Below are positions 1 to 32,356 of a DNA stretch of 64,000 nt, one piece after another. The position numbers and the translations under genes were made by a program. The stretch lies in assembly GCF_054482525.1 (NCBI RefSeq), contig NZ_CM137006.1. One strand, given 5' to 3'. Position 1 is the stretch's first letter. The number at the start of each line of letters is the position of its first letter. The notes under the pieces were generated by a model. It was given only the letters and a program-made list of their open reading frames with translations. It was not told the DNA's origin and ran no database searches.

Positions 1-1
1 C

Positions 2-190
2 GCACAGCGTGCGCTTGACCAGTTCGGGACACCTGAACTCAAAGAATATCTGAACACCACCGGGCTGGGTAATCACCCTGATCTGGTCAAAACGTTCGTG
101 AAAATCGGAAAGGCGATGTCTGAAGATGGCATGGTCACCGGTGGTAATGAAGGCCAGCGTAGTGCGGCCGAAGTGCTCTATGGCAAATAA
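2..190 (+). CDS. Phage protein, 3' end only (possible scaffolding/head-assembly protein)
   Basis: Open frame from window start to TAA at 188-190, ending 15 nt before the putative capsid gene. Function inferred from position only. Confidence 0.35.
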   Translation, partial: AQRALDQFGTPELKEYLNTTGLGNHPDLVKTFVKIGKAMSEDGMVTGGNEGQRSAAEVLYGK

Positions 191-204
191 GAGAGGAAAT
201 GACA

Positions 205-1191
205 ATGGCTGTTAAAGGCTTAACTGCGCTAACGCTGGCTGACTGGGGTAAGCGCGTCGATCCAAACGGGAAAGTCGATAAGATTATCGAGCTTCTCGGT
301 CAAACTAACCCGATCCTTCAGGATATGCCTTTTGTCGAAGGGAACCTTCCTACCGGACACCGAACCACTATTCGTTCTGGTTTACCTTCAGCTACCTGGC
401 GTTTGCTGAACTATGGCGTACAGCCAAGCAAATCAACCACAGTGCAGGTAACCGATTCCGTTGGCATGCTGGAAACCTATGCGGAAGTCGATAAGTCACT
501 GGCTGATCTGAACGGCAATACCGCCGAATTCCGCCTGTCTGAAGACCGCGCATTTATTGAAGCGATGAATCAGCAGATGGCGCAGACGCTGTTTTATGGT
601 GATTCCAGCGTTAACCCTCAGCAGTTTATGGGACTGTCCTCCCGCTATTCCAGCCTGTCTGCGGGTAATGCTCAGAATATCATTGATGCTGGTGGCACGG
701 GTACAGATAACACCTCAATCTGGTTAGTGGTGTGGGGCGAAAACACCGTGCATGGCATCTTCCCGAAAGGGCAGAAGGCTGGCATCCAGATGGAAGATAA
801 AGGCCAGGTGACACTGGAAGATGCTAATGGCGGCAAGTACGAAGGCTATCGCACCCATTACAAATGGGATAACGGACTTGCTCTGCGTGACTGGCGTTAT
901 GTTGTTCGCATTGCAAACATCGATGTCAGCAATCTTTCAGAACCATCCTCTGCCGCAAATATTGCGAAGTTGATGGTTAAAGCACTACATCGCATTCCAA
1001 ACCGTGGCATGGGCCGCCCGGTGTTCTACATGAACCGCACTGTAGGCCAGGCTCTTGATCTGCAGTCTCTGGAGAAAACATCTCTGGCTATCAGCGTAAA
1101 AGAGACAGAAGGCGAGTGGTGGACTTCATTCCGTGGTGTACCAATCCGTGAAACTGATGCGCTTCTGGAAACAGAAGCCCGCGTGGTGTAA
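205..1191 (+). CDS. Putative major capsid protein
   Basis: ORF 199..1191; AGAGGA Shine-Dalgarno is best spaced for the second ATG at 205. Sits upstream of the Tphi-like terminator and the adaptor/nozzle-like genes, as T7 gene 10 does. No sequence-level family match could be confirmed. Confidence 0.5.
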   Translation: MAVKGLTALTLADWGKRVDPNGKVDKIIELLGQTNPILQDMPFVEGNLPTGHRTTIRSGLPSATWRLLNYGVQPSKSTTVQVTDSVGMLETYAEVDKSLADLNGNTAEFRLSEDRAFIEAMNQQMAQTLFYGDSSVNPQQFMGLSSRYSSLSAGNAQNIIDAGGTGTDNTSIWLVVWGENTVHGIFPKGQKAGIQMEDKGQVTLEDANGGKYEGYRTHYKWDNGLALRDWRYVVRIANIDVSNLSEPSSAANIAKLMVKALHRIPNRGMGRPVFYMNRTVGQALDLQSLEKTSLAISVKETEGEWWTSFRGVPIRETDALLETEARVV

Positions 1192-1242
1192 CGCCTGTTA
1201 TTAACCTGTGGGTCGTAACAGACCCACTAATGGAGAAAGAAG

Positions 1243-1680
1243 ATGATCACCGACAAACTGTTGATGTTCTCCGAAGCTCAGGCGGTTACGAATACCGCGG
1301 CTTCTACTGACGTAATCGATCTCGGTCCAATTGACGGAAAACGTCGTGATATCGGCGTGGGTTACCCGCTTGAGTTTTGGGTGCTGGTTAACGCAGCCGC
1401 CGCAGCAAGCGGTGATGCAACTGTAAACATCCAGTTGCAGACGAGTGAGAATAACACCTCATGGACCACTATTTATGATAGTGGCGCACTGGTAAAGACC
1501 GCCCTGACAGCAGGTAAACGAGTTGTTTCTGCAAAGGTGCCTGCCGGTGTTCAGCGATATCTGCGTGTTAACTACTCCGTCGCAACTGGCCCACTAACGG
1601 CTGGCGAATTCACTGCTGGTATCAGTCTTGATGTTGATGCCAATACGCCGTATCCGATCCGCTCAAAAGTAACTGGTTAA
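1243..1680 (+). CDS. Hypothetical virion protein, 145 aa (possible head decoration/accessory)
   Basis: ORF with GGAGAAAG Shine-Dalgarno; co-oriented and tightly packed after the capsid gene. Confidence 0.4.
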   Translation: MITDKLLMFSEAQAVTNTAASTDVIDLGPIDGKRRDIGVGYPLEFWVLVNAAAAASGDATVNIQLQTSENNTSWTTIYDSGALVKTALTAGKRVVSAKVPAGVQRYLRVNYSVATGPLTAGEFTAGISLDVDANTPYPIRSKVTG

Positions 1681-1690
1681 GGTGATATCG

Positions 1691-2026
1691 ATGTCAGGTG
1701 AGAAACCAAGATACCGCGTTCTGCGCCTCTCTCATATCCATAACACTCTGTGGCCGGAGGGGGCAGAAATCGAATACGAAGGTGAGCCTGGTAGCGCACT
1801 GGAACCTGTTAACGATGCAGCCAGACAGGCAAAAGCAAAAGTTGCAGGAAAGGTGTCAATGGCAGCAACCAGCACCAAAATCATCAACGATGTGTCAGAT
1901 GATGGTGAACTGGATAAGCTCCGTGAAGAGTACGAATTGCTCTTTAACGAGAAGCCACACCATAACGCCAAAGCTGAAACGCTCCGCGAGAAGATCGCAG
2001 ATAAGCGTAAAGAACTGGGCGTGTAA
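1691..2026 (+). CDS. Hypothetical phage protein, ~111 aa
   Basis: ORF 1682..2026 in the track; first ATG at 1691. Followed directly by a strong intrinsic terminator. Confidence 0.4.
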   Translation: MSGEKPRYRVLRLSHIHNTLWPEGAEIEYEGEPGSALEPVNDAARQAKAKVAGKVSMAATSTKIINDVSDDGELDKLREEYELLFNEKPHHNAKAETLREKIADKRKELGV

Positions 2027-2042
2027 GCCTCGCGAATCAGAC

Positions 2043-2064
2043 AAGGGGCTTCGGCCCCTTTATT
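2043..2064 (+). terminator. Rho-independent terminator after the capsid gene group (T7 Tphi-like position)
   Basis: aaGGGGCttcgGCCCCtttatt: GC stem, 4-nt loop, T-run. Confidence 0.65.
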
Positions 2065-2076
2065 GCAGGAGTGTAT

Positions 2077-2400
2077 ATGGAACTCGTAAACCTCAAAACC
2101 GGCACTGACAGCTACCAGGATGAGAGCGGAGAAACCAGAACTCGTGATGAATACCCGTGGGGGCTGTGCATCACTCTTAATAACGACACATTGAATAAGC
2201 TGAAGGCGCAACCTAAGGGCGTCGGAACGGAAGTGATGATAACTGCAAAGGCTGTTATTCGAGGCCTGTCTGCCAGAGAAACTGACGATGGCGTTAATCG
2301 CAGCGCCGATCTGCAGATCACTGATATGGCGATCGCTCCTGTTTCCGGGGATGTAGAAAAATCAGCGGCTGAAACTCTGTACGGTAACGGAGGTGAGTGA
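2077..2400 (+). CDS. Hypothetical phage protein, ~107 aa
   Basis: ORF 2071..2400; stop overlaps the next start as TGATG. Confidence 0.4.
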   Translation: MELVNLKTGTDSYQDESGETRTRDEYPWGLCITLNNDTLNKLKAQPKGVGTEVMITAKAVIRGLSARETDDGVNRSADLQITDMAIAPVSGDVEKSAAETLYGNGGE

Positions 2401-3005
2401 TGGCCTCTGTAGTAGAGATCTGTAATCGTGCGCTGTCCAATATTGGCAACAGCCGCAGCATTAACAGCCTGACGGAAGCCAGCAAGGAAGCGGGGGAATG
2501 TTCGCTGCACTTTGAGGCCTGCCGTGATGCTGTGCTTTCTGATTTTGACTGGAACTTTGCTACCAAACGCGTGGCGCTTGCAGATACGAGCAATCCACCG
2601 CCTGACTGGGAATATGCGTACCAGTACCCGTCAGATTGTCTGCGCATTACTGAAATTATGCTTCCTGGTGTACGCAATCCAACAGCAGCAATGCGCGTTC
2701 AGTACGAAGTTGGTGCAGACACCAACGGAACAGGAAAGTTGATCTACACAGACCAGCCTCAGGCATGGCTCAAGTATGTCTCTCGCGTTACAGATGTGAA
2801 CATGTTTGATGCCATTTTTATGGAGGCGTTGGCCTGGCGTCTTGCGGCAGCTATTAACATGGCGCTGACTGGGAATGCAGACCTCGGTACGTTTGCCCTC
2901 AATATGTACAATCGCGTGATTCTTAGTGCTGGCTCGCATAGCCAGAATGAATCACAGGAACCACAGCCACCGGTTGACGAGTTTACCATTGCGAGGTTGT
3001 CCTGA
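2400..3005 (+). CDS. Putative head-tail adaptor / tail tubular protein A-like, 201 aa
   Basis: GGAGGT Shine-Dalgarno; ~200-aa gene immediately before an ~800-aa gene with overlapping stop/start, mirroring T7 gp11/gp12. Assignment is by position and size. Confidence 0.4.
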   Translation: MASVVEICNRALSNIGNSRSINSLTEASKEAGECSLHFEACRDAVLSDFDWNFATKRVALADTSNPPPDWEYAYQYPSDCLRITEIMLPGVRNPTAAMRVQYEVGADTNGTGKLIYTDQPQAWLKYVSRVTDVNMFDAIFMEALAWRLAAAINMALTGNADLGTFALNMYNRVILSAGSHSQNESQEPQPPVDEFTIARLS

Positions 3006-5476
3006 TGGCTATCAGTTGGATCCAGCCCAGCTTTGCCGGTGGTGAGATTGGACCGTCGTTGTACGGACGTATCGACATGGCGAAGTACCAGGTGGCATTG
3101 CGCAAGTGCGATAACTTTATCGTGCGGCAGTATGGCGGCGTTGAGAATCGACCTGGTACGCGTTTTGTCGGTGCCGCCAAATACCCAAATCGGAAATGCC
3201 GCCTGATCCCGTTCCAGTTCTCGACGGTTCAGACCTATGCTCTGGAGTTCGGACACCAGTACATGCGCGTTATCAAAGATGGTGCGTTGGTGCTGAACAG
3301 CAGCAATGTTATTTATGAAATTGCCACGCCATATACTGAAGCCGATCTGTTCCGAATTAAATTTACGCAAAGCGCCGACGTGCTTACGCTGGTTCACCCG
3401 GCATACCCGCCGAAAGAGTTGCGCCGCTATGCGCATGACAACTGGCAACTGGTTGATGTGGTAACGAAGAACGGGCCATTTGAAGATATCAATATTGACG
3501 AGTCAGTGACGGTTTATGCCAGCGCCAGCACTGGGACAATTACGTTAACGGCAAGCGCCTCTATTTTTGGCGCGGAGCAGGTAGGCAAATTGTTCTATCT
3601 GGAACAGCCTGCAGTGGATTCTGTGCCGGTATGGGAAACCAGTAAGAGTACGTCGATTGGCGATATTCGCCGTGCAGACAGTAACTACTATCGCGCCGTT
3701 ACAGCAGGAAAAACAGGCACTTTGCGCCCTTCGCATACAGAAGGCACATCATGGGATGGCTGGGGCGGATCCGGTGATGATGATACTGGCATTGAGTGGG
3801 AGTATCTGCACAGTGGTTTTGGCATTGCCCGTATAACTGCTGTAAATGGCACTACTGCAACTGCTGAGGTGATTTCCTATATCCCTTCGCAGGTCGTTGG
3901 CGAGGATAATGCCAGCTATAAATGGGCTAAATATGCCTGGAACAGTGTTAATGGTTATCCTGGCACTGTTGTTTATTATCAACAACGTCTTTACTTCGCC
4001 GCATCGACTGCGTTCCCTCAGACTATCTGGGCCAGCCGTACTGGGGATTATAAGGATTTTGGCAAAAGCAATCCTACGCAGGATGACGACAGAATTATCT
4101 ACACCTATGCCGGGCGTCAGGTTAATGAGATCCGCCACCTGATTGATGTTGGTTCGCTGGTGGCGCTGACTTCCGGAGGTGAGTATGTCATCACCGGCGA
4201 CCAGAACAAAGTGTTAACCCCATCATCATTTGCATTCAGCTCTCAGGGATCAAATGGCTCAAGCAACGTCCCGCCAATTGCCGTGGCGAATATTGCTTTG
4301 TTCGTCCAGGAGAAAGGCAGTGTTGTACGTGATCTGGCCTACTCATTCGATGTTGACGGCTATCAGGGGAACGACCTGACCATCCTTGCCAATCATCTTT
4401 TTCAGAAGCACAGCATTGTTGACTGGTGCTTCTCGATTGTCCCTTACTCCAGCGCCTTCTGCATTCGTGATGACGGTAAATTGCTGGTGATGACCTATTT
4501 GCGTGATCAGCAGGTTTTTGCATGGGCACCACAATCCAGTACCGGGAAATATGAAAGCACATGCAGTATCAGCGAAGGCAATGAAGATGCGGTGTATTTC
4601 GTCGTTAACCGAACCGTTAACGGGCAAACAGTGAGATACATAGAGCGACTGTCCAGCCGTTTATTTACCAGCGATGAAGATGCTTTCTTTGTTGATTCTG
4701 GCCTTAGCTATGATGGAAGAAATACGTCTGACAGAACGATGACCATCACTGGTGGTTCTGGTGAATGGGATTACCGCGCGGAATATACAATCAGTATTTC
4801 TGGTGGTGCGTACTTCACCAGTAGTGATGTCGGTGCGCAACTACAATTCCCTTATACCGGAACTGATCCTGATACTGGCGATGAAGTGTCAAAAGAATTA
4901 CGTTGCGACATTATTTCTGTAACCAGCAATACCGCTGTAGTGGTTCGTCCTAACAGGAACGTCCCATCATCCCTCAGGAATGTGGCCACCACGAACTGGC
5001 AGATGGCGCGCCGGACATTTGGAGGCCTGTCTCATCTTGAAGGCCAGATCGTAAACATTCTCTCTGATGCGAACGTGGAACCACAGAAAGTTGTTTCCGG
5101 AGGTGCCGTCACGCTGGAATCTCCGGGGGCTGTAGTGCACATCGGCCTGCCAATAACTGCTGAATTCGAAACACTGGATATCAACATTAGCGGACAGGAA
5201 ACGCTGCTGGACAAAAAACAGGTGATCCCGTCCGTTACTCTGGTTGTGAATGCCAGTCGCGGCATCTGGGCGACTACGCCCGGCGGTAAATGGTACGAAT
5301 ATCCACAGCGTGAATTCGAGTTCTACGATGATCCTGTTGATGATGCTACCGGAAAAGTAGAAGTGAAACTGGACAGTAACTGGGGCAAAAACGGGCGTGT
5401 AAAAATCCGTCAGCTTGACCCGTTGCCGCTGTCTGTTCTTGCCGTTATTCCTCGCCTTACTGTTGGGGGAGTCTGA
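3005..5476 (+). CDS. Putative tail tubular protein B / nozzle-like protein, 823 aa
   Basis: TGATG overlap with the upstream gene; size and position match T7 gp12. N-terminus is Gly/Pro-rich. Confidence 0.45.
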   Translation: MAISWIQPSFAGGEIGPSLYGRIDMAKYQVALRKCDNFIVRQYGGVENRPGTRFVGAAKYPNRKCRLIPFQFSTVQTYALEFGHQYMRVIKDGALVLNSSNVIYEIATPYTEADLFRIKFTQSADVLTLVHPAYPPKELRRYAHDNWQLVDVVTKNGPFEDINIDESVTVYASASTGTITLTASASIFGAEQVGKLFYLEQPAVDSVPVWETSKSTSIGDIRRADSNYYRAVTAGKTGTLRPSHTEGTSWDGWGGSGDDDTGIEWEYLHSGFGIARITAVNGTTATAEVISYIPSQVVGEDNASYKWAKYAWNSVNGYPGTVVYYQQRLYFAASTAFPQTIWASRTGDYKDFGKSNPTQDDDRIIYTYAGRQVNEIRHLIDVGSLVALTSGGEYVITGDQNKVLTPSSFAFSSQGSNGSSNVPPIAVANIALFVQEKGSVVRDLAYSFDVDGYQGNDLTILANHLFQKHSIVDWCFSIVPYSSAFCIRDDGKLLVMTYLRDQQVFAWAPQSSTGKYESTCSISEGNEDAVYFVVNRTVNGQTVRYIERLSSRLFTSDEDAFFVDSGLSYDGRNTSDRTMTITGGSGEWDYRAEYTISISGGAYFTSSDVGAQLQFPYTGTDPDTGDEVSKELRCDIISVTSNTAVVVRPNRNVPSSLRNVATTNWQMARRTFGGLSHLEGQIVNILSDANVEPQKVVSGGAVTLESPGAVVHIGLPITAEFETLDINISGQETLLDKKQVIPSVTLVVNASRGIWATTPGGKWYEYPQREFEFYDDPVDDATGKVEVKLDSNWGKNGRVKIRQLDPLPLSVLAVIPRLTVGGV

Positions 5477-5940
5477 TGATCGATGTTCAAATTATTCCCG
5501 CTACCGAAGAGCATCTTCAGATGATTTTGCCGGATGTTCGTCAGGCTGATATTGACGAACTGTATGCGGTATCGCTGATGACTACCGAAGATGCGCTGCG
5601 CGTTGGTCTTCGCACTGCGACTATGGCCTGGTCAGGGTTCGCGAACGGAGAACTGGTAACCATGTTTGGTGTATCTCCGGCGTCAATGATCGGTGGCAAT
5701 GGTACGCCCTGGCTGGTAGGAACCAGCCGTATTGAAAAATATCAGAAGACATTTCTGCGCCACTGCCGCCCTGTATTGCAGCAGATGCTGGCAGTTTATC
5801 CGCGCCTGGAAAACTACGTCGACGAGCGAAACCATGTTGCCAAAGCATGGCTGCACTGGCTTGGATTCAGGCTTGAAGAAGCCGCGCCTTATGGTGCTCT
5901 TGGTCTTAATTTCCACAGATTTCACATGGAGAGAAAATAA
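5476..5940 (+). CDS. Putative internal virion protein, 154 aa
   Basis: Start overlaps the upstream stop; lies in the internal-protein block between nozzle-like gene and tailspike. Confidence 0.35.
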   Translation: MIDVQIIPATEEHLQMILPDVRQADIDELYAVSLMTTEDALRVGLRTATMAWSGFANGELVTMFGVSPASMIGGNGTPWLVGTSRIEKYQKTFLRHCRPVLQQMLAVYPRLENYVDERNHVAKAWLHWLGFRLEEAAPYGALGLNFHRFHMERK

Positions 5941-6485
5941 TGTGCGATCCGGTTATTGCTGGTGGCGCAATGCTCGCCATGAGTGGCATTCAGGCATACA
6001 CCCAGTACCAACAGGGAAAGTATGCCTCGAAGGTTGCAGAAGCGAACGCAGATATAGCCACAGCTCAGGCAAATGATGCAATAAACAGAGGTAACGCTGA
6101 AGCTGAGCAACGACGCAGAGAGACCCGACAGCGGCTTGGTACACAGGCGGCGACAATGGGGGCTACCGGCGCTGATTTATCTACAGGTAACGCGCTGGAT
6201 ATATTTGGCGACACTGCCCAGTTTGGCGCTCTTGATTCGCTGACGACGGTGAATAACGCGCAACGCGAGGCTTACGGTTATCAGGTTCAGGCTGCCAACT
6301 ATAAAGCAGAAGCCAGTTCAGCCCGTAAACAGGGGAATGTGGGAGCAGCAACAACATTGCTCACTGCGCCTCTGAAGGCATACGGTGCCTACCAGATGTT
6401 TGGTGGGACGTGGAGTCCGTTTACTCAAAGTACTCCTGCACCAATCGGGGCAGCAGCAGGAACCAGATTACCCGGAGGATTATAA
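5940..6485 (+). CDS. Putative internal virion protein, 181 aa, Ala/Gly/Gln-rich
   Basis: TAATG overlap with upstream gene; low-complexity helical composition typical of ejection proteins. Confidence 0.35.
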   Translation: MCDPVIAGGAMLAMSGIQAYTQYQQGKYASKVAEANADIATAQANDAINRGNAEAEQRRRETRQRLGTQAATMGATGADLSTGNALDIFGDTAQFGALDSLTTVNNAQREAYGYQVQAANYKAEASSARKQGNVGAATTLLTAPLKAYGAYQMFGGTWSPFTQSTPAPIGAAAGTRLPGGL

Positions 6486-8998
6486 TGCCAGTCGTACCAA
6501 CAGTATCCGGACGTCAGGTTGAGAGCCGTGGAGTTCAGTCAGCAGGCTTGCAGACGTTTTCTCAGCCAGGTATTGGTGATGCTTTTGTTCGGGCAGGGGC
6601 AGAGGCTATTGATGTTTTTGGTCAGGCAAAACAGCGTGCCAATATCGCTCTGGCTCAGGAGGCATCTCTTAACCTCAGTCAGATAAGCAGTGATCTGCTG
6701 AATAATCCTGAAACAGGATTGCTTAACCTGAAAGGGAAAAATGCTATTGGAAAAGGCCATGAGTATACGCAGCAGTTTGATGCTCAGGTCGAACAACTGG
6801 CTATGTCGCTGCCGGATGAACAGGCTCGTAATGCTTTCATGCAGCAGGCGCAGCAGCAGCGCATTCAGTTCACTACGCAGGCAGGGCGGCACGAGATAGG
6901 GCAAATAAATGCCTACGAAGAAGGCCAGTTTCAGGCTACGCTGCTGAACAATGGTAAAAATGCCGCAGCATTGTATGGCGACAACGCCGCATACGTATTG
7001 GCTAATAAGCAAACTTTCCAGCAAATTGAGGATTACGGCATTGCACATGGCTGGAGTGACGAGCAAATCCAGGCCAAGAAAATCGAGTTTAAAGAAGCAA
7101 CAGCAAAAGCAACTGCTCAAAATGCTATTGGAGCAAACTATCTTCAGGTAAGACAGCAAAACGGCGAGTTAAGCGATACTGCTGCTGGATCTCGCCGTGC
7201 TGTAGCAGATAGTGGCTCTTTCGATCGTACCCGCGGTATACGCAACAATAACCCCGGCAATCTTGAATACAGCAAAACTAATCCGTGGGTTGGGCAGACA
7301 GGTGATGATGGTCGCTTTGCTAAATTCGAAACACCTGAACACGGTATTCGTGCATTAGGGCGGAACCTGATGTCGTATCAGCGGCAGGGTATTGATACCG
7401 TCAGCGAGATAATTAATCGCTGGGCACCGCCCACTGATAAAAATGACACAATGTCGTATATCAAAGCAGTGTGCGAACAACTTGGCGTTTCTGCTGATGA
7501 GTCTCTCGATGCATCTAATCCGGATACCCTGAAGGCGCTTTGTGCAGCCATTATCCATCATGAAAACGGTAGCCAGCCATACAGTGATCAGCAGTTAACT
7601 GATGGTGTTAGTGCTGCGCTGGGGCTTTCTCAGCTACCGACAAAAAATAAACGTTATACCGGTGTAGCTTGGTTCGATGCTTTAAGTGAATCAGATCAGG
7701 CCAGCGTGTTGCGACAGACTGATGCACTAGCCAGACAACAGCAGGCTGAATATAAAACGATGCTCGACAGCCGGGTTCGCGATGCGACGGCTGCGTATAT
7801 GCGTGGCGTTGAATTTCCTAACCCACCTGGTGAGGATGATTTTATTGCAGCTTATGGAGTCAGAGAAGGAAACCTGCGATATACCGAGTTTAAGAATACG
7901 CAGATCGCCGGACAGTATATAGGCTCTTTCCGCAACATGCCGACAAGCAGCATTACAGCATATGTTGAGCAATTACGCCCGGATACTGGTGATACAGGGG
8001 AGGGGTATGCGGCACGCGCAGCTCTTTATGACAACGTTGTTTCGGCTGCAAATCAGGTGATAAAGCAGCGGCAGTCGGATCCTGTGCAGTTCTCTCTTGC
8101 CTCCGGACAGGCAAAGCCTATCGACATGAGCAATAAGGATAACTTTGGACAGAGCGTTGCCTTGCGTGCCGCTCAGGTCAGTGACCTTGCTAAGTCATAT
8201 GGCACTCCACTGACGTTCTTTTCCAAAGACGAGGCCAATCAGATCGGTGTTTTCTTTCGTGATGCTCCAGTTTCCCAACAGGCAGCATATCTCGATACCA
8301 TCAGGCAGAGCACTGGTGGTGGGCAGGTGTATATGTCAGCACTACAGCAGATCAGTGCCAACGCTCCATCTGCTGCCGTTGCCGGGATACTGATGGATAA
8401 GCCTGGTGGTATTTTGGCAGAAAAAAACTGGTTTAATCCGGATGTTTCCGTGTCTCCTGAAACCGCTGCGCAGACAATTCTTGCTGGCGCGGCGGCTCGT
8501 AAAGGTACTGATGATGCGAAAGGTATTCCGATGCCTAAAGATGCTGATCTTCGCCTTGAGTTTTCTGACATGGTGAAGGATGCATTTGCTGGTGACGCTC
8601 AGGGGGCATCAATGGCATACGAGATCGCAAAGGATTATTACGCTGGTGTGATGGCGAAAAAAGGCGTGGTATCAGGCGAAATTGACAATGATGTCTGGAA
8701 ACAGGCTGTTAACGTAGCTACAGGTGGCGTGCATGACTATAACGGAATGGGGAATGTCCTTTTGCCGTGGGGAATGTCTGCAGAGCAATTCGATAAGCAG
8801 GTTAATCAGGCTTGGAATGAACAAGTTGTCGGCTCTGGGATAAAAACACCGCCTGGTCAGTATGGTTTGCAAAGTTACGGCGATAGTCAGTACCTGGTGA
8901 AACTTGGTACTGGTTATCTGCTGAAAGATGATGGTTCTCCCGTTGTTCTTAATCTGACACAGAAGCGTCAGAGATTCTCCGGAGATATTCCGCAATGA
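6485..8998 (+). CDS. Putative internal virion/ejection protein, 837 aa, with a conserved central block
   Basis: Track ORF 6410..8998; ATG at 6485 overlaps the upstream stop (TAATG). Central block GIRNNNPGNL...RWAPP...HHENG looks like a globular domain. Confidence 0.4.
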   Translation: MPVVPTVSGRQVESRGVQSAGLQTFSQPGIGDAFVRAGAEAIDVFGQAKQRANIALAQEASLNLSQISSDLLNNPETGLLNLKGKNAIGKGHEYTQQFDAQVEQLAMSLPDEQARNAFMQQAQQQRIQFTTQAGRHEIGQINAYEEGQFQATLLNNGKNAAALYGDNAAYVLANKQTFQQIEDYGIAHGWSDEQIQAKKIEFKEATAKATAQNAIGANYLQVRQQNGELSDTAAGSRRAVADSGSFDRTRGIRNNNPGNLEYSKTNPWVGQTGDDGRFAKFETPEHGIRALGRNLMSYQRQGIDTVSEIINRWAPPTDKNDTMSYIKAVCEQLGVSADESLDASNPDTLKALCAAIIHHENGSQPYSDQQLTDGVSAALGLSQLPTKNKRYTGVAWFDALSESDQASVLRQTDALARQQQAEYKTMLDSRVRDATAAYMRGVEFPNPPGEDDFIAAYGVREGNLRYTEFKNTQIAGQYIGSFRNMPTSSITAYVEQLRPDTGDTGEGYAARAALYDNVVSAANQVIKQRQSDPVQFSLASGQAKPIDMSNKDNFGQSVALRAAQVSDLAKSYGTPLTFFSKDEANQIGVFFRDAPVSQQAAYLDTIRQSTGGGQVYMSALQQISANAPSAAVAGILMDKPGGILAEKNWFNPDVSVSPETAAQTILAGAAARKGTDDAKGIPMPKDADLRLEFSDMVKDAFAGDAQGASMAYEIAKDYYAGVMAKKGVVSGEIDNDVWKQAVNVATGGVHDYNGMGNVLLPWGMSAEQFDKQVNQAWNEQVVGSGIKTPPGQYGLQSYGDSQYLVKLGTGYLLKDDGSPVVLNLTQKRQRFSGDIPQ

Positions 8999-10797
8999 GT
9001 TACTTTGGCCTTAATCCAGTAAACCAGAATCAGCAGCTTGACGAAGCAGCATCAAATCCAGCTGGCTTTAACAGCGATGTTGGTTTTTTCGACAATGCTG
9101 TAGGAGCGGCATTGTCTGGTTTGTACTCCGGGCTGGTGGCAAAGCCAGATCAGTTGCTATGGGCAGGGATGGATAAAATCGTATCCCCGATTGCTCAGTT
9201 TGTTAACGAAAACACCTCGCTCAATGATACTTCAGTTTCATACATTGCCGAGCAGAGAAAACTAGCAGAGCAGCAGGTTAAGCGGCTGACGCCTGATGCC
9301 GCGACAACCGGAACCGCTGGGCAGGTTCTTTATGGGTTGTTCGATATGGGCGGGCAGGCTGTTGTCGGTACAACGCTCGGTGGTCCTGTCGGAGGTGCAG
9401 CGGCGGTAACTTCGCTACAGGGTTTTTCTGAGTTTGAACGGCTGACAGCACAGGGTGTTGATTTCAGGACGGCGCAGGAAGCGGGATTAGTGCAGGGCAT
9501 TACTGCTGGTGCCGGAACGCTGATCCCTATGAGCCTCGGGTTACGTGCTGGTGGTGCGCTGGCGGAAGGTGTGGCGGCTCAGCTTGCGCGGACGGGTGAG
9601 AGTTCAGTGCGACGCGCCGCAGCAACAGCAGTACGTGCAACGCCAGATATTGCCTATGCCGCAGGTACAAATATTGCGTTCGGTATGGCACAGCGTGGGC
9701 TTACTGCAAAAACACTTCGTGATGGTGGCTATAGCGAAATGGCTAACCAGTATGATGTGTTGGATCGACAGGCAATTGCTATTGATGCTGTTCTTGGGGT
9801 GGCGTTTGGTGGTGTCGGCAGATTTATTAACTCTCGCGGCGAGTCTACAAACGCACCAAATTTTTCACCAGTTGATATCGATGCTGCACTGGCGGCGAAT
9901 GCCGCTCATCATGCTGAAATTGATATTGCGCCCGGCGTGCCGATCAACGTGCTTTCGCGCAATTCTCACATTCAGGCTCTGCGAAAAGCTATGTCTGATG
10001 TTAGCCAGGGGAGACCTGTAGACGTTGCCAGCATTGTTGAGTCTGCATCTTTCAGTGAAATTCCTGGGCGCAAGAGTCTGCTGTCTCAGGCAGTTAATGA
10101 GGCTCTGTCATCTGTAGATGATGGAGTAACGGCGCGCGCTATAGAAAATCGGTTGCTTGAAGAACAGGCCGCGCAGCTTTTGCCGCGTGGAGATAGACAG
10201 GTTTACCAGTCTGAAATCGCTAATAGCCAACGAATTATTGAAAATCTCACTGAACAGCGTGCACAAATTCTTGCAGAAGAGCCAACCGGTAGCGGTAAAG
10301 CTTTGTCTCGTGCTCGATCAGATAAACAGGCCAGACTTCGCGATATTGATCAACGAATCCGGCAGGCACAAGAACGCCTGGAATTTTCCCGTAACGCGTT
10401 GGCACCGCACGAGCCTGGCGGTCAGTTTTTTGAAGCTCGAGCAGAACTGGCTCGGAGACAGCAGGCAGAAAGTGAACTTAATGCTCAGGCTGTTTCATTC
10501 TATAAAACAGCAGAGGTCAGGACGCCAGACGAAGTAGCTCCTTTTGAGCCTGATAAAATATTGCAACAGGCAGAACAAAAAATGATGTCAGATCAGGCAG
10601 GAGATATTGATCTGCGCATAGCTGAAGACTCGCTGCTTGAATCACCTGACATGATAATCACCGTGCTGGATGATGATGGTAATCCACAATCGCGCAGTGC
10701 GCGTGAAGTACTGGATGAAGCGAACAGGGAAAGTGAGCAGGCAATACAGGATTCCAGCCTGTTTGATGTTGCTGTGGCGTGTTTCTTGAGAGGTTAA
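8995..10797 (+). CDS. Putative internal virion/ejection protein, 600 aa
   Basis: ATGA overlap with upstream gene; Gly/Ala-rich N-terminal half and charged helical C-terminal half. Confidence 0.4.
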   Translation: MSYFGLNPVNQNQQLDEAASNPAGFNSDVGFFDNAVGAALSGLYSGLVAKPDQLLWAGMDKIVSPIAQFVNENTSLNDTSVSYIAEQRKLAEQQVKRLTPDAATTGTAGQVLYGLFDMGGQAVVGTTLGGPVGGAAAVTSLQGFSEFERLTAQGVDFRTAQEAGLVQGITAGAGTLIPMSLGLRAGGALAEGVAAQLARTGESSVRRAAATAVRATPDIAYAAGTNIAFGMAQRGLTAKTLRDGGYSEMANQYDVLDRQAIAIDAVLGVAFGGVGRFINSRGESTNAPNFSPVDIDAALAANAAHHAEIDIAPGVPINVLSRNSHIQALRKAMSDVSQGRPVDVASIVESASFSEIPGRKSLLSQAVNEALSSVDDGVTARAIENRLLEEQAAQLLPRGDRQVYQSEIANSQRIIENLTEQRAQILAEEPTGSGKALSRARSDKQARLRDIDQRIRQAQERLEFSRNALAPHEPGGQFFEARAELARRQQAESELNAQAVSFYKTAEVRTPDEVAPFEPDKILQQAEQKMMSDQAGDIDLRIAEDSLLESPDMIITVLDDDGNPQSRSAREVLDEANRESEQAIQDSSLFDVAVACFLRG

Positions 10798-10802
10798 ATT
10801 AA

Positions 10803-13277
10803 ATGAGACAGGAATGTATACAAGCGGTCCAGCAGGCGGCGCAGCGCACGTTAACGGCGCGAGAAATACAGAACATTGAAGACCGCATTTATCGAAATAT
10901 GCGCTCCATTGCTCGTGATGACCCGATGTCGTGGCGACAACTTTCCGAATCAGAACGGTTGTATCGTGCAGCACAATTGGCATCTGAAGAATTACAGCGA
11001 GAAGCGGCATTAAAGAAACGTCGTGTGGCCCTCACTATAGCCGCACGTCAGAGATTGGATAAATTTATCAATAGCTATCAAGGGGCTGATGGGAAACTTG
11101 GCGCTCTTAACCGTACTATTGCTTTTAATGCAGACGGTAAATCGAATTTCCTCTCTGTTGAATCCAGAACAAAAGCCACCCGTGATTATGCATTGAGTCA
11201 ATTGCAGGAGGCATTCGAAGCAGTTGATCCTCGCTTTTTTGGTCTGTTTGAAGATGAAGCGGGCGTACGTGACCTGATATATGAAATGCGGGGGCAAAAT
11301 ACTGGCAATGCTAAAGCAAGAAAAGGTGCTAAGGCGTGGAGAGAAGTTACAGAGCTGCTGCGCCGCCGGTTTAATGATGCTGGTGGGGACATTGGCTATC
11401 TCGAAAACTGGGGGATCCCTCAACATCATTCTATGGAAAAGGTTGGGGCGGTATCAAAAGATAAATGGGTTAGCGATGTTATAGGTAAGCTGGATCGCAA
11501 ATATTATACCCGAGCCGATGGACAACTGATGAACGATGCCGAGTTGTCTGCATTTCTTGGAGAGGCTTATAACACGATCGCTACTGGTGGGCTGAATAAG
11601 CTTACTGATACCGGAATGCGAATTTCCGGCGCACGTGCTAACCGTGGTAATGCATCACGACAGATACATTTCAAAGATGCAGATTCCTATCTGCAATATC
11701 AGCAACTTTATGGCGATCGCTCTCTATGGGAAATCATGGTCGGTCACCTGGAAGGTATCAGTAAAGATATTGCACTGGTGGAAACATATGGTCCAAACCC
11801 CGATCATGTTTTCCGCTCTCTTCTTGATCAGGTGAAGGCAGAAACGGCAACAGCTAACCCGAGTAAAACCGGTAAAGTCGAGCGGCTGGCGAACAACACA
11901 GAGAATCTGTACAACTTTATTTCCGGAAAGACACAGCCTGTAGCGAATCCGCACATCGCGCGATGGTCTGACAATATCCGCAACTGGCTGGTTGCCAGCA
12001 GACTCGGATCCGCGTTGCTGTCATCGTTCTCTGATCTTGGAACCATGTATCTGTCTGCGAAGGTTACCAACCTTCCAATGAACCAGTTATTCCGCAACCA
12101 GCTTGAAGCTATGGACCCAACGAACCGTACAGAACTTGCGCGGGCGCGCCGCGCTGGTCTGGCGATGGAATCTCTACTTGGCAGCGTTAACCGCTGGGCG
12201 ATGGATAATATGGGGCCGTCTGTGTCTCGTTGGGCTGCAACGGCGGTAATGCGTGCCAGTGGGCTTACAGCATGGTCAGATGCGCACAAGCGCGCCTATG
12301 GCGTAACCATGATGGGAAGCCTGGGAGAAGTAGTGTCACGGACACCAGACCTTCGTCGCCTCGATGACTCTGATTTTCGTATCCTGAAAAGCAAAGGGAT
12401 TACTGACACAGACTGGAGCGTATGGAAGTTGGCGCAACAGGAGGACTGGGGGAACGGTAATAATACGATGCTGACACCGGAAAGCATTATGCGTATCCCT
12501 GATTCAGCAGTTAAACATCTTGGTGAGCCTGAACGCGTGAAATTTGAGGCAATGCGTAAACTGCTCGGTGCCGTAACTGAAGAAGTTGATATGGCTGTTA
12601 TTACACCGGGAGCACGTGAGCAACTGATAACCGGTTCTGGTATTCAGCGTGGAACATGGAAAGGTGAATTAACGAGAAGTGTTTTCCTGTTTAAATCGTT
12701 CCCTATCTCGGTTGTTATGCGTCACTGGTCACGCGCTATGGGTATGCCGTCTGCTGGTGGGCGTGCGGCATATATTGCGACGTTTATTGCCAGTACGACC
12801 ATTCTTGGCGCTTTGTCGCAACAACTTAACGACCTTGCGTCTGGTCGTAATCCTCGAGAGATGACAGGAGAAGATGCTGCTAAATTTTGGCTTGGTGCTC
12901 TACTGAAAGGTGGTGGTCTTGGCCTTTACGGTGACTTTTTATTGTCAGATCACACTAGGTACGGGAGCGGCGCGCTGGCGTCGATGCTTGGCCCGGTAGC
13001 TGGTCTGGTTGATGACGTAGTGAAGATAGCTCAGGGCATACCGCTAAATGCTGTGGAAGGGAAGAGTGAGCAGACTGGTGGTGATCTGGTGAAGCTGGGG
13101 AAAGGTTTGATGCCAGGTGCGAATCTCTGGTACTTGAAGGCGGCTCTCGATCACATGATCTTTAATCAGATGCAGGAGTATTTTTCACCAGGCTATTTGC
13201 GTAAAATGGAGCAACGTTCGAAGAAAGAGTTTAACCAGACATACTGGTGGCGACCTCAGGATGTCACTCCGCAATAA
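10803..13277 (+). CDS. Putative internal virion/ejection protein, 824 aa
   Basis: GAGAGG Shine-Dalgarno; last large gene of the co-oriented structural block. Confidence 0.4.
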   Translation: MRQECIQAVQQAAQRTLTAREIQNIEDRIYRNMRSIARDDPMSWRQLSESERLYRAAQLASEELQREAALKKRRVALTIAARQRLDKFINSYQGADGKLGALNRTIAFNADGKSNFLSVESRTKATRDYALSQLQEAFEAVDPRFFGLFEDEAGVRDLIYEMRGQNTGNAKARKGAKAWREVTELLRRRFNDAGGDIGYLENWGIPQHHSMEKVGAVSKDKWVSDVIGKLDRKYYTRADGQLMNDAELSAFLGEAYNTIATGGLNKLTDTGMRISGARANRGNASRQIHFKDADSYLQYQQLYGDRSLWEIMVGHLEGISKDIALVETYGPNPDHVFRSLLDQVKAETATANPSKTGKVERLANNTENLYNFISGKTQPVANPHIARWSDNIRNWLVASRLGSALLSSFSDLGTMYLSAKVTNLPMNQLFRNQLEAMDPTNRTELARARRAGLAMESLLGSVNRWAMDNMGPSVSRWAATAVMRASGLTAWSDAHKRAYGVTMMGSLGEVVSRTPDLRRLDDSDFRILKSKGITDTDWSVWKLAQQEDWGNGNNTMLTPESIMRIPDSAVKHLGEPERVKFEAMRKLLGAVTEEVDMAVITPGAREQLITGSGIQRGTWKGELTRSVFLFKSFPISVVMRHWSRAMGMPSAGGRAAYIATFIASTTILGALSQQLNDLASGRNPREMTGEDAAKFWLGALLKGGGLGLYGDFLLSDHTRYGSGALASMLGPVAGLVDDVVKIAQGIPLNAVEGKSEQTGGDLVKLGKGLMPGANLWYLKAALDHMIFNQMQEYFSPGYLRKMEQRSKKEFNQTYWWRPQDVTPQ

Positions 13278-13286
13278 GGAAGTGTT

Positions 13287-13460
13287 GTGTTTTTAATTAT
13301 TTTGAGTGTGATAATTTCTGGTGGATTGTTATTTATTGACCGCTACAAATATTTTCTTAACCCTCAGACTCAAGCTATTTGCTGGTTCATCTTTGTTGTG
13401 CAGGGAGTAGTTCTTGTTGCAAGCCTTATTGAGGGGAGGCCTCTTATTTTTACTGGGTAA
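13287..13460 (+). CDS. Small hydrophobic protein, 57 aa, GTG start (below the ORF-track length cutoff)
   Basis: Hand translation: VFLIILSVIISGGLLFIDRYKYFLNPQTQAICWFIFVVQGVVLVASLIEGRPLIFTG. AAGGAAG Shine-Dalgarno 4 nt upstream; two predicted membrane helices; AT-rich. Confidence 0.3.
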   Translation: MFLIILSVIISGGLLFIDRYKYFLNPQTQAICWFIFVVQGVVLVASLIEGRPLIFTG

Positions 13461-13472
13461 ATAGGTGACTAC

Positions 13473-13769
13473 ATGCAAGCTATAGGATTCATTGTTTATA
13501 TCGTCGTTGGTCTTTTTCAGTTGGCAGCAATTATGGCTGGGCTTGAATCATGGTGGGGATTGCACTGGATAATTGCAGCCCCCATTGCTTTCATCGTGAG
13601 CTATATTCCATTTGTTGGAGCGATTGTTGGTATGGTTGGCGCTGTGGATGTATGGCGGTGGGAGTGGTGGCAGGCTGGCCTTCTCTTCTTTGGTGGGATC
13701 ATCTTTGCTATTGTCTGCGGTGGAATGTCATCATTTTTCGAATGGCTATCATTCAGAAAAGGGACGTGA
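13473..13769 (+). CDS. Small integral membrane protein, 98 aa (three predicted helices, Trp-rich loops)
   Basis: ORF with AGGTGA Shine-Dalgarno 6 nt upstream; strongly hydrophobic segments. Confidence 0.5.
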   Translation: MQAIGFIVYIVVGLFQLAAIMAGLESWWGLHWIIAAPIAFIVSYIPFVGAIVGMVGAVDVWRWEWWQAGLLFFGGIIFAIVCGGMSSFFEWLSFRKGT

Positions 13770-13800
13770 CATGTCACAGGCCGCTTTCGCGGCCTTGTTT

Positions 13801-13962
13801 TTAACGAATGCCACCGCCGCCCGGACGGGAATCCGCAGAACGCCCACCGCAGCGGGAGCCGTCAGCGGCAGTATCGCTGTCGTGCTGACAACGACCGGCA
13901 AAGGCCTGAGTTGAAGCTACCAGAGACAACAAAACGAACAGTGCAGCAAATGCTTTTTTCAT
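13801..13962 (-). CDS. Small protein with canonical Sec signal peptide, 53 aa; antisense-overlaps an alternative + strand 47-aa ORF (13771..13914)
   Basis: MKKAFAALFVLLSLVASTQAFA then a Gly/Arg/Asp-rich 31-residue tail with two Cys. Upstream TTGACG-16nt-TATAGA promoter-like element. Only one of the two overlapping ORFs is likely real. Confidence 0.3.
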   Translation of the reverse strand: MKKAFAALFVLLSLVASTQAFAGRCQHDSDTAADGSRCGGRSADSRPGGGGIR

Positions 13963-14035
13963 TGTGAAATTTCCATCTATAAGCCACCTCAATGTGGCGT
14001 CAATGAGTGTAGCACTGACTTTTGTTTCGTCCACA

Positions 14036-14058
14036 AAAAATCCCGCAGCGCGGGCTTA
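14036..14058 (-). terminator. Intrinsic terminator downstream of the toxin-like gene
   Basis: Minus strand reads aagCCCGCgctGCGGGattttttg. Confidence 0.5.
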
Positions 14059-14601
14059 TTCCTTCCATTTATCAGAAAAAAGATCTTCTTCTAAAGGCAT
14101 TGGTTCTGTTTTTGTTTTCTCAAAGAATTGATAACTGATAGTGATTGCTGCCTCTTTAAACTCTTCTTGCTCAGTTATGTTGTGGGCATCTGCGTCAACA
14201 AAAAACATAACCAGCGCATCACGATTGTGATTTACCGAATAAACTAAAAAGCAATTACTTGTTGGTATGCATTTTACTTGCACAGACGCTATTTTTTTCC
14301 ATGCATCCCAAGATGATTTTTTACCAGTGTGTTTTTTATCACTATCTTCTGGAATATAGTCTTGGTTATCGACATGAGTATGCCTGACATTTAGTTTAAG
14401 CATTTCTGTCGGACGAGCAAATGCAGCATCTTTACCAAGAGATGGATGGTATCCCGTTTTCCAATACTGGGTAAAGGCATCAGATACTTTCTTCAGCTCA
14501 AGATCAGATGCACAAAGGGCCGAGAAATTTTGCGTATGCAATACTCGACCCTTATATCTGACAATTTGATTTTTATCATTCTGCGACGCAGACGAACTCA
14601 T
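14056..14601 (-). CDS. Hypothetical toxin-like accessory protein, 181 aa (tentative resemblance to YafO-family toxins; unverified)
   Basis: Track ORF 14056..14628; ATG at 14601 with AAGGAA Shine-Dalgarno. AT-rich, opposite strand to virion genes. Motifs YHPSLGKDAAFARP and VRHTHV recalled as YafO-like, from memory only. Confidence 0.5.
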   Translation of the reverse strand: MSSSASQNDKNQIVRYKGRVLHTQNFSALCASDLELKKVSDAFTQYWKTGYHPSLGKDAAFARPTEMLKLNVRHTHVDNQDYIPEDSDKKHTGKKSSWDAWKKIASVQVKCIPTSNCFLVYSVNHNRDALVMFFVDADAHNITEQEEFKEAAITISYQFFEKTKTEPMPLEEDLFSDKWKE

Positions 14602-14755: not shown

Positions 14756-14902
14756 GACATTACCTCATATCTCATAAGTTCATTACACGGATTAATAAAA
14801 ATGAAACCAATCCGTTTACCCTTGAGGTAATAGTACGCTATTCACCCACAGTCTGCAATCTGTACAGAATTATTTAAAGGCACATCCCTGTGCCGCCGCC
14901 CG

Positions 14903-16171: not shown

Positions 16172-16193
16172 CTTAATCTTCTCCATGCAATAA

Positions 16194-32325: not shown

Positions 32326-32356
32326 AAAGCCGACTTTAAGAGTCGGCTTTTTTTTG
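32326..32356 (+). terminator. Intrinsic terminator/attenuator between upp and uraA
   Basis: aaaGCCGACTttaagAGTCGGCttttttttt. Confidence 0.65.

What the first reader, a model, noticed from the sequence alone, without database searches (positions are those of the whole stretch)
2030..2070. Strong intrinsic terminator inside the virion gene block, after the capsid gene group
AAGGGGCttcgGCCCCTT plus a T-run sits three genes into the structural block, where T7 has Tphi after gene 10. Partial termination here would make capsid-region transcripts more abundant than tail and internal-protein transcripts.
Basis: partly seen in the sequence, partly recalled or inferred. Interest (0 to 1): 0.25.

Follow-up and report, generated by a model that had tools for sequence, protein, structure and literature searches.

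The report
Leaky terminator hairpin in prophage capsid operon
A small, very stable RNA hairpin followed by a short U-rich stretch sits between two genes of a phiV10/epsilon15-type prophage; it is almost certainly an ordinary, probably leaky, host-type transcription terminator, and its counterpart in phage epsilon15 is already annotated as one.

Summary
The hairpin is real: AAGGGGC-TTCG-GCCCCTT at 2043-2060, in the 50-nt gap between the gp9-like gene (stop 2024-2026) and the next gene (ATG 2077). The "T-run" is only TTTATT (2059-2064), and two of those T belong to the stem. It is not chance. On a classical terminator score it is one of 6 plus-strand sites in 64 kb, against 0.12 expected at that score or better. 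It is also the longest invariant stretch among phages whose flanks are 65-80% identical.

The window starts inside a phiV10/epsilon15-type (Uetakevirus) prophage. Epsilon15's GenBank record already annotates a rho-independent terminator at the same gene junction. Bordetella phage BPP-1 has one at the equivalent place.

"Strong" is not supported. It scores lowest of the six sites, and the phiV10 RefSeq record does not annotate it.

"After the capsid gene group" is only partly right. The gene just downstream is the gp10 capsid staple, which matches the major capsid protein about 1:1 in epsilon15.

Best reading: a leaky intrinsic terminator for host RNA polymerase that also gives upstream capsid mRNA a protective 3' hairpin. 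No transcript data were available. This is an ordinary feature of low interest.

The parts
205..1191 (+). Major capsid protein gene (epsilon15 gp7 family)
   Evidence: Pfam PF20911 GP7, 497 bits. Annotated 'major head protein' in phiV10.
1208..1227 (+). Hairpin 1, GTGGGTC-GTAACA-GACCCAC, directly after the capsid gene stop codon; it has no U-tract
   Evidence: Fold of -13.6 kcal/mol. Compensatory stem changes in relatives. BPP-1 and BcepC6B also have a G/C hairpin right after their capsid genes.
1243..1680 (+). gp8, a Bbp16-family capsid cement-like protein gene
   Evidence: Pfam PF21190, 158 bits. PGAP name 'Bbp16 family capsid cement protein'.
1691..2026 (+). gp9-like gene of unknown function; stop codon TAA at 2024-2026
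   Evidence: phrog_590, 206 bits. Annotated PhiV10p12, similar to epsilon15 gp9.
2043..2060 (+). The hairpin in question: 7-bp stem AAGGGGC/GCCCCTT (G/C core 2045-2058) with a C(UUCG)G tetraloop
   Evidence: Positions 2044-2061 are invariant in five phages with 65-80% identical flanks. Present in 80 of 80 phiV10-like viral contigs.
2059..2064 (+). U-rich tract TTTATT; its first two T also pair with A2043 and A2044
   Evidence: Tail score nT = 3.2 and d = 7.4.
2067..2071 (+). Shine-Dalgarno sequence AGGAG of the gp10 gene, 6 nt after the stem
   Evidence: Read directly from the sequence. Conserved in the alignment.
2077..2400 (+). gp10 capsid staple (decoration) protein gene
   Evidence: PDB 3j40_N, E 1.2e-21. 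Pfam PF21628, 174 bits. PGAP name 'capsid staple protein'.
2400..3005 (+). gp11 gene, with tail tubular protein A-like annotation; homologue of BPP-1 Bbp14
   Evidence: 33% identity to Bbp14, E 6e-27. Epsilon15's record cites an HHpred match to T7 tail tubular protein A.
13779..13804 (+). Operon-end terminator GGCCGC-TTTC-GCGGCC followed by TTGTTTTT, used here as a comparator
   Evidence: d = 17.0. Listed by the consensus scan. By position and sequence it appears to be the terminator annotated in phiV10 at 19505-19522; the two were not aligned.

Best explanation
The element is a conserved, leaky, Rho-independent (intrinsic) terminator or attenuator. It is read by the host RNA polymerase inside the long late structural operon of a phiV10/epsilon15-type prophage.

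Proposed mechanism: as the polymerase transcribes past the gp9 stop codon, the nascent RNA folds into the GGGGC-UUCG-GCCCC hairpin, extended by two A-U pairs. The weak rU:dA hybrid over UUUAUU then lets a fraction of polymerases release the transcript around 2064-2068. The rest read through into gp10, the tail tubular genes and the internal-protein genes. Terminated transcripts end in a very stable C(UUCG)G hairpin, which should also slow 3'-to-5' exonucleases. Messages for portal, protease, capsid, gp8 and gp9 would then outnumber and outlast downstream messages.

The hairpin starts only 16-18 nt after the gp9 stop codon, so the fraction terminated is probably modulated by how closely the ribosome follows the polymerase.

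Shown: the sequence, its fold, its rarity by chance, its location, its conservation and the identity of the neighbouring genes. Inferred: actual termination, its efficiency and its effect on RNA stability.
For: Anatomy:
- A perfect 7-bp stem with five G-C pairs, a UUCG loop and a TTTATT tail, on the coding strand in a 50-nt gap.

Statistics:
- d = +7.4. It is one of 6 plus-strand sites with d > 0 in 64 kb, against 0.12 expected at d >= 7.4.

Selection:
- Positions 2044-2061 are the longest invariant run in 710 aligned nt among five phages with 65-80% identity.
- In 80 close relatives the stem never varies, while the 16-nt spacer before it has 4 variable sites.

Positional conservation with changed sequence:
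- All 28 epsilon15-clade contigs carry CGGGGCC-(ATTC/GAAC/TTTC)-GGCCCCG followed by CTTTTCT or TTTTTCA at the same junction.
- BPP-1 has CGGGGGC-TTCGT-GCCCCCG-CTTTTTCTT in front of its gp11 homologue.

Prior annotation:
- Epsilon15's GenBank record AY150271.2 marks this junction as a 'rho-independent terminator'.
- The same hairpin is annotated as a terminator in a T4-like and a T5-like phage.

Operon layout:
- In phiV10 the only two intergenic gaps of 15 nt or more in the 16-kb operon are the two that hold hairpins.
- No other site with d > 0, and no above-chance promoter, lies between 2060 and 13779. Read-through is therefore required.

Polymerase and spacing:
- Neither phage record lists an RNA polymerase gene.
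- A stop-to-hairpin distance of 16-18 nt falls where Li et al. measured ribosome-dependent termination efficiencies of 0.12 to 0.8 for tR2 (PMC4824070).
Against: - No transcript 3'-end, RNA-seq or reporter data exist for this phage group in the literature I could search.
- The U-tract is short and interrupted. The consensus scan did not call the site, and the phiV10 record, which carries 10 terminator features, has none at this junction.
- The gene just downstream, the gp10 staple, is needed about 1:1 with the capsid protein. That fits poorly with strong attenuation.
- How late transcription is regulated here is unknown. If a Q-like factor makes the polymerase terminator-resistant, the site would be silent during lytic growth. 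PhiV10p55 is a 'transcriptional regulator' followed by an annotated terminator and then terS.
Confidence: 0.6

Rival explanations
1. The hairpin is mainly an mRNA stability or processing element and terminates little. Read-through transcripts are cut or trimmed, and the C(UUCG)G hairpin blocks 3'-to-5' exonucleases. Together with hairpin 1 (1208-1227), this yields long-lived capsid-gene messages.
For: - The U-tract is poor.
- A second conserved hairpin with compensatory changes and no U-tract sits right after the capsid gene. BPP-1 and BcepC6B have the same arrangement. Structured 3' barriers therefore appear to be a theme in this operon.
- The gp10 requirement of about 1:1 with the capsid protein argues against much polymerase loss here.
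- From my own knowledge, not checked here: CUUCGG hairpins in T4 intercistronic regions were described as exceptionally stable (Tuerk et al. 1988).
Against: - Every lineage keeps a U-rich run immediately after this hairpin, and epsilon15-clade and BPP-1 versions have 4-5 consecutive U. A pure exonuclease barrier does not need that, and hairpin 1 lacks it.
- The two roles are not exclusive.
Confidence: 0.22
2. The hairpin serves gp10 expression. Either it insulates the gp10 ribosome-binding site (AGGAG, 6 nt downstream) from upstream structure, or it forms a protective 5' stem-loop on a processed gp10-gp11 message.
For: - The hairpin lies 6 nt before a strong Shine-Dalgarno sequence, and that spacing and sequence are conserved in the phiV10 clade.
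- Gp10 must be made in capsid-level amounts.
Against: - In BPP-1 the equivalent hairpin precedes the low-copy gp11 homologue, not a gp10 gene.
- The distance to the Shine-Dalgarno sequence differs in epsilon15 (11 nt).
- The predicted unpaired probability of the Shine-Dalgarno sequence is unremarkable at 0.42.
- No processing site is known.
Confidence: 0.08
3. The element is a DNA-level palindrome, such as a protein-binding site or recombination scar at the point where gp10 was relocated, or a neutral leftover with no RNA function.
For: - It is a perfect inverted repeat.
- It sits at the 5' boundary of a gene (gp10) whose position differs between phage lineages.
Against: - The stem is invariant while its flanks vary.
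- Between clades the outer pair changes from A-T to C-G while pairing is kept.
- It is strand-specific: the U-rich tail is on the coding strand only, and the minus-strand tail GTCTGATT is poor (hand-computed nT about 1.0).
- BPP-1 has the hairpin without gp10 next to it.
Confidence: 0.04

Closest known systems
Rho-independent terminator annotated between gp9 and gp10 of Salmonella phage epsilon15 (GenBank AY150271.2, stem_loop 7664-7686 on + and 7647-7681 on -)
   Same: - Same gene junction: gp9 stop, hairpin, gp10 Shine-Dalgarno sequence.
- Same G/C core, GGGGC...GCCCC.
- It is the only terminator annotated inside the gp3-gp18 operon.

   Different: - Epsilon15's stem is CGGGGCC/GGCCCCG with an ATTC loop and a lower A/U extension.
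- Its tail is CTTTTCT, and it is annotated on both strands.
- The window's version has two A-U pairs instead of the outer C-G pair, a UUCG loop and a TTTATT tail, with no credible minus-strand tail.
- Neither has been tested experimentally, as far as I could find.
T7 Tphi, the late terminator after capsid gene 10
   Same: - An incomplete terminator inside the virion gene block of a podovirus, upstream of the tail tubular A-like gene.
- The proposed effect is the same: more head-gene message than tail-gene message.
   Different: - Tphi is a class I terminator for the phage's own single-subunit RNA polymerase. This phage group has no annotated polymerase gene, so host polymerase is involved.
- Tphi follows the capsid gene directly. 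Here two more genes intervene, and a capsid staple gene lies downstream.
C(UUCG)G tetraloop hairpins of phage intercistronic regions, such as the T4-like regA/gene 43 gap and the T5-like D11/D12 gap
   Same: - The 18-nt hairpin is identical, AAGGGGCTTCGGCCCCTT, or GGGGCTTCGGCCCC in the T5-like case.
- In both cases it sits just after a stop codon.
- Both are annotated as rho-independent terminators by TransTermHP or WebGeSTer.
- More than 2,000 phage records had a local match to the 47-nt query centred on the hairpin.

   Different: - These phages and genes are unrelated. This is convergent use of a generic, very stable hairpin, not homology.
- Tails differ: ATTTGG in the T4-like phage and TCTTTTT in the T5-like phage.
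Unannotated hairpin in the bbp15/bbp14 gap of Bordetella phage BPP-1
   Same: - Equivalent position: capsid gene, hairpin, Bbp16 cement gene, a small gene, then a terminator-like hairpin before the gp11 homologue.
- Similar stem, CGGGGGC/GCCCCCG.

   Different: - BPP-1 has five consecutive U.
- Its gp10-like gene (Bbp20) sits after the portal gene instead, so there the hairpin truly separates head genes from tail genes.

Membership tests
Rho-independent (intrinsic) terminator | G/C-rich stem-loop with a stem of about 5-14 bp and a loop of 3-8 nt | tested here: met
   7-bp stem with five G-C pairs and a 4-nt UUCG loop. Free energy -12.7 kcal/mol; z-score -2.56 against shuffles.
Rho-independent (intrinsic) terminator | U-rich tract immediately 3' of the stem | tested here: inconclusive
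   The tract is TTTATT, and its first two T are also stem partners. It passes with the 5-bp core: 5 T in 8, nT 3.2, d = +7.4. That score is similar to the annotated epsilon15 (2.8) and T4-like (3.1) sites, and below the operon-end terminators (17 and 32).
Rho-independent (intrinsic) terminator | Lies on the transcribed strand, downstream of a stop codon, in non-coding sequence | tested here: met
   It begins 16 nt after the gp9 TAA and ends 16 nt before the gp10 ATG, on the same strand as all flanking genes.
Rho-independent (intrinsic) terminator | RNA polymerase actually releases transcripts there | not testable with these tools
   No transcript or 3'-end data were available, and no relevant paper was found.
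T7 Tphi-type late terminator | Recognised by a phage-encoded single-subunit RNA polymerase | tested here: not met
   Neither the full phiV10 annotation nor the full epsilon15 annotation lists an RNA polymerase gene.
T7 Tphi-type late terminator | Separates the capsid gene(s) from the tail and internal-protein genes | tested here: not met
   The first downstream gene is the gp10 capsid staple. The feature is met only in the relative BPP-1.
C(UUCG)G tetraloop hairpin | UUCG loop closed by a C-G pair on a G/C stem | tested here: met
   The sequence reads ...GGGGC UUCG GCCCC... directly.
Curated RNA families (Rfam 15) | A match to any covariance model | tested here: not met
   The only hit in 1100-2300 was a chance-level snoRNA match elsewhere in the region, E = 7.7.

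The most novel reading that the evidence does not exclude
The two conserved hairpins (1208-1227 and 2043-2060) work together as a translation-coupled attenuator. The terminator sits 16-18 nt after the gp9 stop codon, so its efficiency would depend on how closely the ribosome trails the polymerase. Terminated transcripts would then be trimmed back to stable capsid-gene messages. In this way a podovirus using only host polymerase would tune head-to-tail, and capsid-to-staple, protein ratios according to the cell's translational state.
Probability: 0.1. Interest if true: 0.35.

Novelty: new member of a known kind. Interest (0 to 1): 0.15.

Why it matters
It matters little beyond annotation. It adds a probable internal terminator to phiV10-like prophages, where the reference record omits it. 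These prophages are common: 530 of 5,426 complete E. coli genomes share at least 80% of a 6-kb stretch spanning this prophage-chromosome junction. It also shows that the site is conserved from Bordetella phage BPP-1 to the enterobacterial Uetakeviruses.

For people engineering phiV10 reporter phages, the 2027-2076 gap marks a likely step in expression level, which bears on where a payload should be inserted. If termination is real and coupled to translation, this would be a simple model of how a phage without its own polymerase sets structural-protein ratios. That idea is untested.

Tried and rejected
- Chance palindrome: rejected by the shuffle statistics and conservation.
- Known RNA family: the Rfam scan found nothing.
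- Bidirectional terminator, as annotated in epsilon15: rejected for this window. The minus-strand tail is GTCTGATT, with a hand-computed nT of about 1.0, below my scan's cut-off.
- Stop-codon read-through or frameshift signal: continuing in frame past the gp9 TAA adds 20 codons and then stops. Gp10 is in a different frame with its own Shine-Dalgarno sequence. There is no support for this.
- Long ORFs crossing the hairpin (1698-2108 on +, 1732-2211 on -): treated as mechanical ORFs, because gp9 and gp10 match established families.
- A restarting promoter for gp10: none near 2000-2100, and promoter-like hits overall are at chance level, 30 found against 27.3 expected.
- Shine-Dalgarno sequestration by a longer fold (2028-2035 pairing with 2062-2069): weak, at z = -1.9, and not clearly conserved.
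- Reaching distant relatives through viral-contig scans: two scans returned only 98-100% identical loci. Diversity came instead from a tblastn of the phage collection.
- Formal column-wise covariation count across clades: abandoned because MAFFT aligns the stems in different registers. The comparison was made by hand.
- The Kropinski 2007 epsilon15 genome paper could not be retrieved. The phiV10 and ZX5 papers contained nothing on late transcription.
- Whether PhiV10p55 is a Q-like antiterminator: no hit in Pfam, NCBIfam or the PDB. Only the PHROG label 'transcriptional regulator' was found. Unresolved.

Full report
**Observation.**
The reported sequence is present exactly. AAGGGGC is at 2043-2049, TTCG at 2050-2053 and GCCCCTT at 2054-2060, followed by TATTGCAGGAGTGTATATG. 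It is a perfect 7-bp inverted repeat with a 4-nt spacer. As RNA it folds at -12.7 kcal/mol, with z = -2.56 against dinucleotide shuffles.

The "T-run" is overstated. The U-rich tract is TTTATT (2059-2064), and its first two residues are also the partners of A2043 and A2044. The tool's consensus terminator scan over 1-20000 did not list the site. The likely reason is that it extends the stem to 7 bp before counting T; the output does not say.

I re-implemented the d'Aubenton-Carafa discriminant, restricted to perfect stems and trying every sub-stem. The site scores d = +7.4, using the GGGGC/GCCCC core at -9.6 kcal/mol and a tail score of 3.2. Only 6 plus-strand and 7 minus-strand sites in the whole 64-kb window score above zero, and this one is the lowest of the plus-strand six. 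Sixty dinucleotide shuffles give 0.38 sites with d > 0 and 0.12 with d >= 7.4 per 64-kb strand. The element is real and far from chance, but it is not a "strong" terminator by sequence criteria.

**Context.**
The first 6 kb of the window are 100% identical to Escherichia phage HEMP4 and 98.7% identical to phiV10, genus Uetakevirus, the epsilon15 group. The prophage's right arm runs to about 21.65 kb, where the E. coli genes begin: yfgI, yfgH, pdeF, ppx, ppk and onward. At least 80% of a 6-kb stretch spanning this junction is found in 530 of 5,426 complete E. coli genomes.

| Feature | Coordinates | Evidence |
|---|---|---|
| Major capsid protein gene | 205-1191 | Pfam PF20911, 497 bits |
| gp8, Bbp16 cement family | 1243-1680 | Pfam PF21190 |
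| gp9-like gene, unknown function | 1691-2026 | phrog_590 |
| Hairpin | 2043-2060 | |
| Shine-Dalgarno AGGAG | 2067-2071 | |
| gp10 gene | 2077-2400 | see below |
| gp11, gp12 and internal-protein genes | 2400 onward | |

The gp10 product is the epsilon15 capsid "staple". It matches PDB 3j40 chain N at E = 1.2e-21 and Pfam PF21628 at 174 bits, and PGAP names it "capsid staple protein". In epsilon15, gp10 is present in essentially 1:1 correspondence with the capsid protein gp7 (PMC9207676), although it is reported to be dispensable for infectivity (PMC7602432). The hairpin therefore does not lie "after the capsid gene group". It splits that group.

**Conservation.**
- Among five phages whose gp9-gp10 region is only 65-80% identical (the window, Tyrion, Klebsiella ST11-OXA245phi3.2, PAT1 and BUCT554), the longest invariant run in 710 aligned nt is 2044-2061, which is the hairpin. 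The invariant fraction is 0.94 in the hairpin, against 0.43 and 0.53 in the flanking genes.
- In 80 phiV10-like viral contigs the stem never varies. One contig has a loop change (UUCG to UUCA), and the 16-nt spacer upstream has four variable sites.
- All 28 epsilon15-clade contigs carry a different but related hairpin at the same junction. It is CGGGGCC-(ATTC/GAAC/TTTC)-GGCCCCG followed by CTTTTCT or TTTTTCA. The loop is free to vary, and the outer pair is C-G where phiV10-type phages have A-T.
- Epsilon15's GenBank record annotates this junction as a rho-independent terminator, and it is the only one inside the gp3-gp18 operon.
- The phiV10 RefSeq record carries 10 terminator features, but none at this junction.
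- Bordetella phage BPP-1 has CGGGGGC-TTCGT-GCCCCCG-CTTTTTCTT in the gap before bbp14. Bbp14 is the gp11 homologue, at 33% identity and E = 6e-27.
- In BPP-1, BcepC6B and two uncultured or freshwater phages, the gp10-like gene lies directly after the portal gene instead.

The terminator position is therefore older than the present location of gp10. In Uetakeviruses the staple gene sits just downstream of the terminator.

**Generic nature of the hairpin.**
A 47-nt query centred on the hairpin gave local matches in more than 2,000 phage records. The identical 18-nt hairpin sits between regA and gene 43 of a T4-like phage. The 14-nt core sits between D11 and D12 of a T5-like phage. Both are annotated as rho-independent terminators by TransTermHP or WebGeSTer. 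On my scale those score 3.1 and 22.9. The epsilon15 site scores 2.8, BPP-1 8.2, and the window's operon-end and attR-side terminators 17.0 and 32.1. Rfam has no matching family.

**Mechanism.**
The best-supported reading is a leaky intrinsic terminator acting on host RNA polymerase.
- Neither the phiV10 nor the epsilon15 record lists a phage RNA polymerase gene.
- In phiV10 the operon is tightly packed. Its only two gaps of 15 nt or more are the 51-nt and 50-nt gaps that hold hairpins.
- Between 2060 and the operon-end terminator at 13779 there is no other scoring terminator and no above-chance promoter. The downstream tail and internal-protein genes therefore depend on read-through, so any termination must be partial. 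This is an inference.
- The hairpin begins 16 nt (18 nt for the G/C core) after the gp9 stop codon. In E. coli, lambda tR2 placed 17-18 bp after a stop codon terminated with efficiencies anywhere from 0.12 to 0.8, depending on ribosome coupling, and reached about 0.9 beyond 30 bp (PMC4824070). The spacing alone therefore suggests submaximal, translation-sensitive termination. This too is an inference.
- Terminated RNAs would end in a C(UUCG)G hairpin, plausibly protecting upstream capsid messages from 3' exonucleases. That rests on my own knowledge of such hairpins and was not tested.

Arguments against strong attenuation are the poor U-tract and the gp10 requirement of about 1:1 with the capsid protein. 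The strong AGGAG Shine-Dalgarno sequence of gp10 could compensate at the level of translation.

**Rival explanations.**
1. A pure stability or processing hairpin. This is favoured by the weak U-tract and by the U-less hairpin 1 after the capsid gene. It is disfavoured by the U-rich run retained after this hairpin in every lineage.
2. An element serving gp10 translation or 5'-end protection. This is disfavoured because in BPP-1 the hairpin precedes the gp11 homologue instead.
3. A DNA-level palindrome or scar. This is disfavoured by the strand asymmetry, the invariant stem and the pair-preserving change between clades.

An open question is whether late transcription is antiterminated. PhiV10p55 is a "transcriptional regulator" followed by an annotated terminator and then terS, and it has no informative homology. 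Epsilon15's record instead places repressor sites upstream of terS, gp3 and the tailspike gene, which suggests ordinary promoter control.

**Comparison and novelty.**
The element works like, and meets the sequence criteria of, an intrinsic terminator, with a marginal U-tract. It is the positional counterpart of a terminator annotated in epsilon15. It is not a T7 Tphi-type element, because the polymerase differs and a capsid gene lies downstream. It is a new, previously unannotated member of a very well known kind. Interest is low.

**Limits.**
No transcript data were accessible, and the epsilon15 genome paper could not be retrieved. Termination, its efficiency and any effect on RNA stability all remain inferred.

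Noticed in passing
window 1208-1227 (gap 1192-1242 between the capsid gene and gp8): A second hairpin, GTGGGTC-GTAACA-GACCCAC (-13.6 kcal/mol), sits right after the capsid gene stop codon. It has no U-tract. It shows compensatory stem changes in relatives: GTGGGCC/GGCCCAC with a T.G intermediate, ATGGGCC/GGCCCAT in PAT1, and GCGGCCCG/CGGGCTGC in a Klebsiella phage. BPP-1 and BcepC6B also have a G/C hairpin directly after their capsid genes, whereas epsilon15 lacks one. It is probably an mRNA 3' stabiliser or processing barrier.
   Followed up: partly
window 2077-2400; loci L201-L204: The gp10 capsid staple gene occupies different positions in related phages. It lies directly after the portal gene in BPP-1 (Bbp20), BcepC6B (gp06), a Manatee Spring phage and Limnohabitans phage DC33. 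In Uetakeviruses it lies after gp9 and the terminator, and an unrelated gp5 follows the portal gene.
   Followed up: partly
L203 6520-6560 (Bordetella phage BPP-1, bbp15/bbp14 gap): An unannotated canonical terminator-like hairpin, CGGGGGC-TTCGT-GCCCCCG-CTTTTTCTT, lies at the position equivalent to the window's hairpin, in front of the gp11 homologue.
   Followed up: yes
window 13779-13804 and 21627-21646: These are stronger terminator candidates. The first, GGCCGC-TTTC-GCGGCC followed by TTGTTTTT, ends the structural operon (d = 17) and appears to correspond to a terminator annotated in phiV10. The second, CCCTCTGT-TACT-ACAGAGGG, has T-runs on both strands (d = 32 and 16). It lies between the lysis genes and yfgI, at the prophage-chromosome junction.
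   Followed up: partly
window 14056-15598 (- strand): An accessory-gene region lies between the structural operon and the tailspike gene. It holds a 190-aa ORF with a sub-threshold YafO-toxin match (23.2 bits against a cut-off of 25; PGAP names the homologue a YafO family toxin) and a BRO-N domain protein. No antitoxin partner was looked for.
   Followed up: no
window ~21650-64000: The remainder of the window is ordinary E. coli chromosome, judged from the annotation of a near-identical strain: yfgI, yfgH, pdeF, ppx, ppk, purN, purM, upp, uraA, hda, arsC, bepA and the hyf operon. High-scoring intrinsic terminators occur at 32329 (after upp), 54780/54836, 55507 and 62545.
   Followed up: no
L196 38766-39104 (phiV10 p55; outside the window): The last gene before terS encodes a 112-aa 'transcriptional regulator' (phrog_536) with no hit in Pfam, NCBIfam or the PDB. 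It is followed by an annotated terminator. The layout recalls lambda's Q and tR' arrangement. Whether late transcription is antiterminated is unknown, and it bears on whether the internal hairpin can act during lytic growth.
   Followed up: partly
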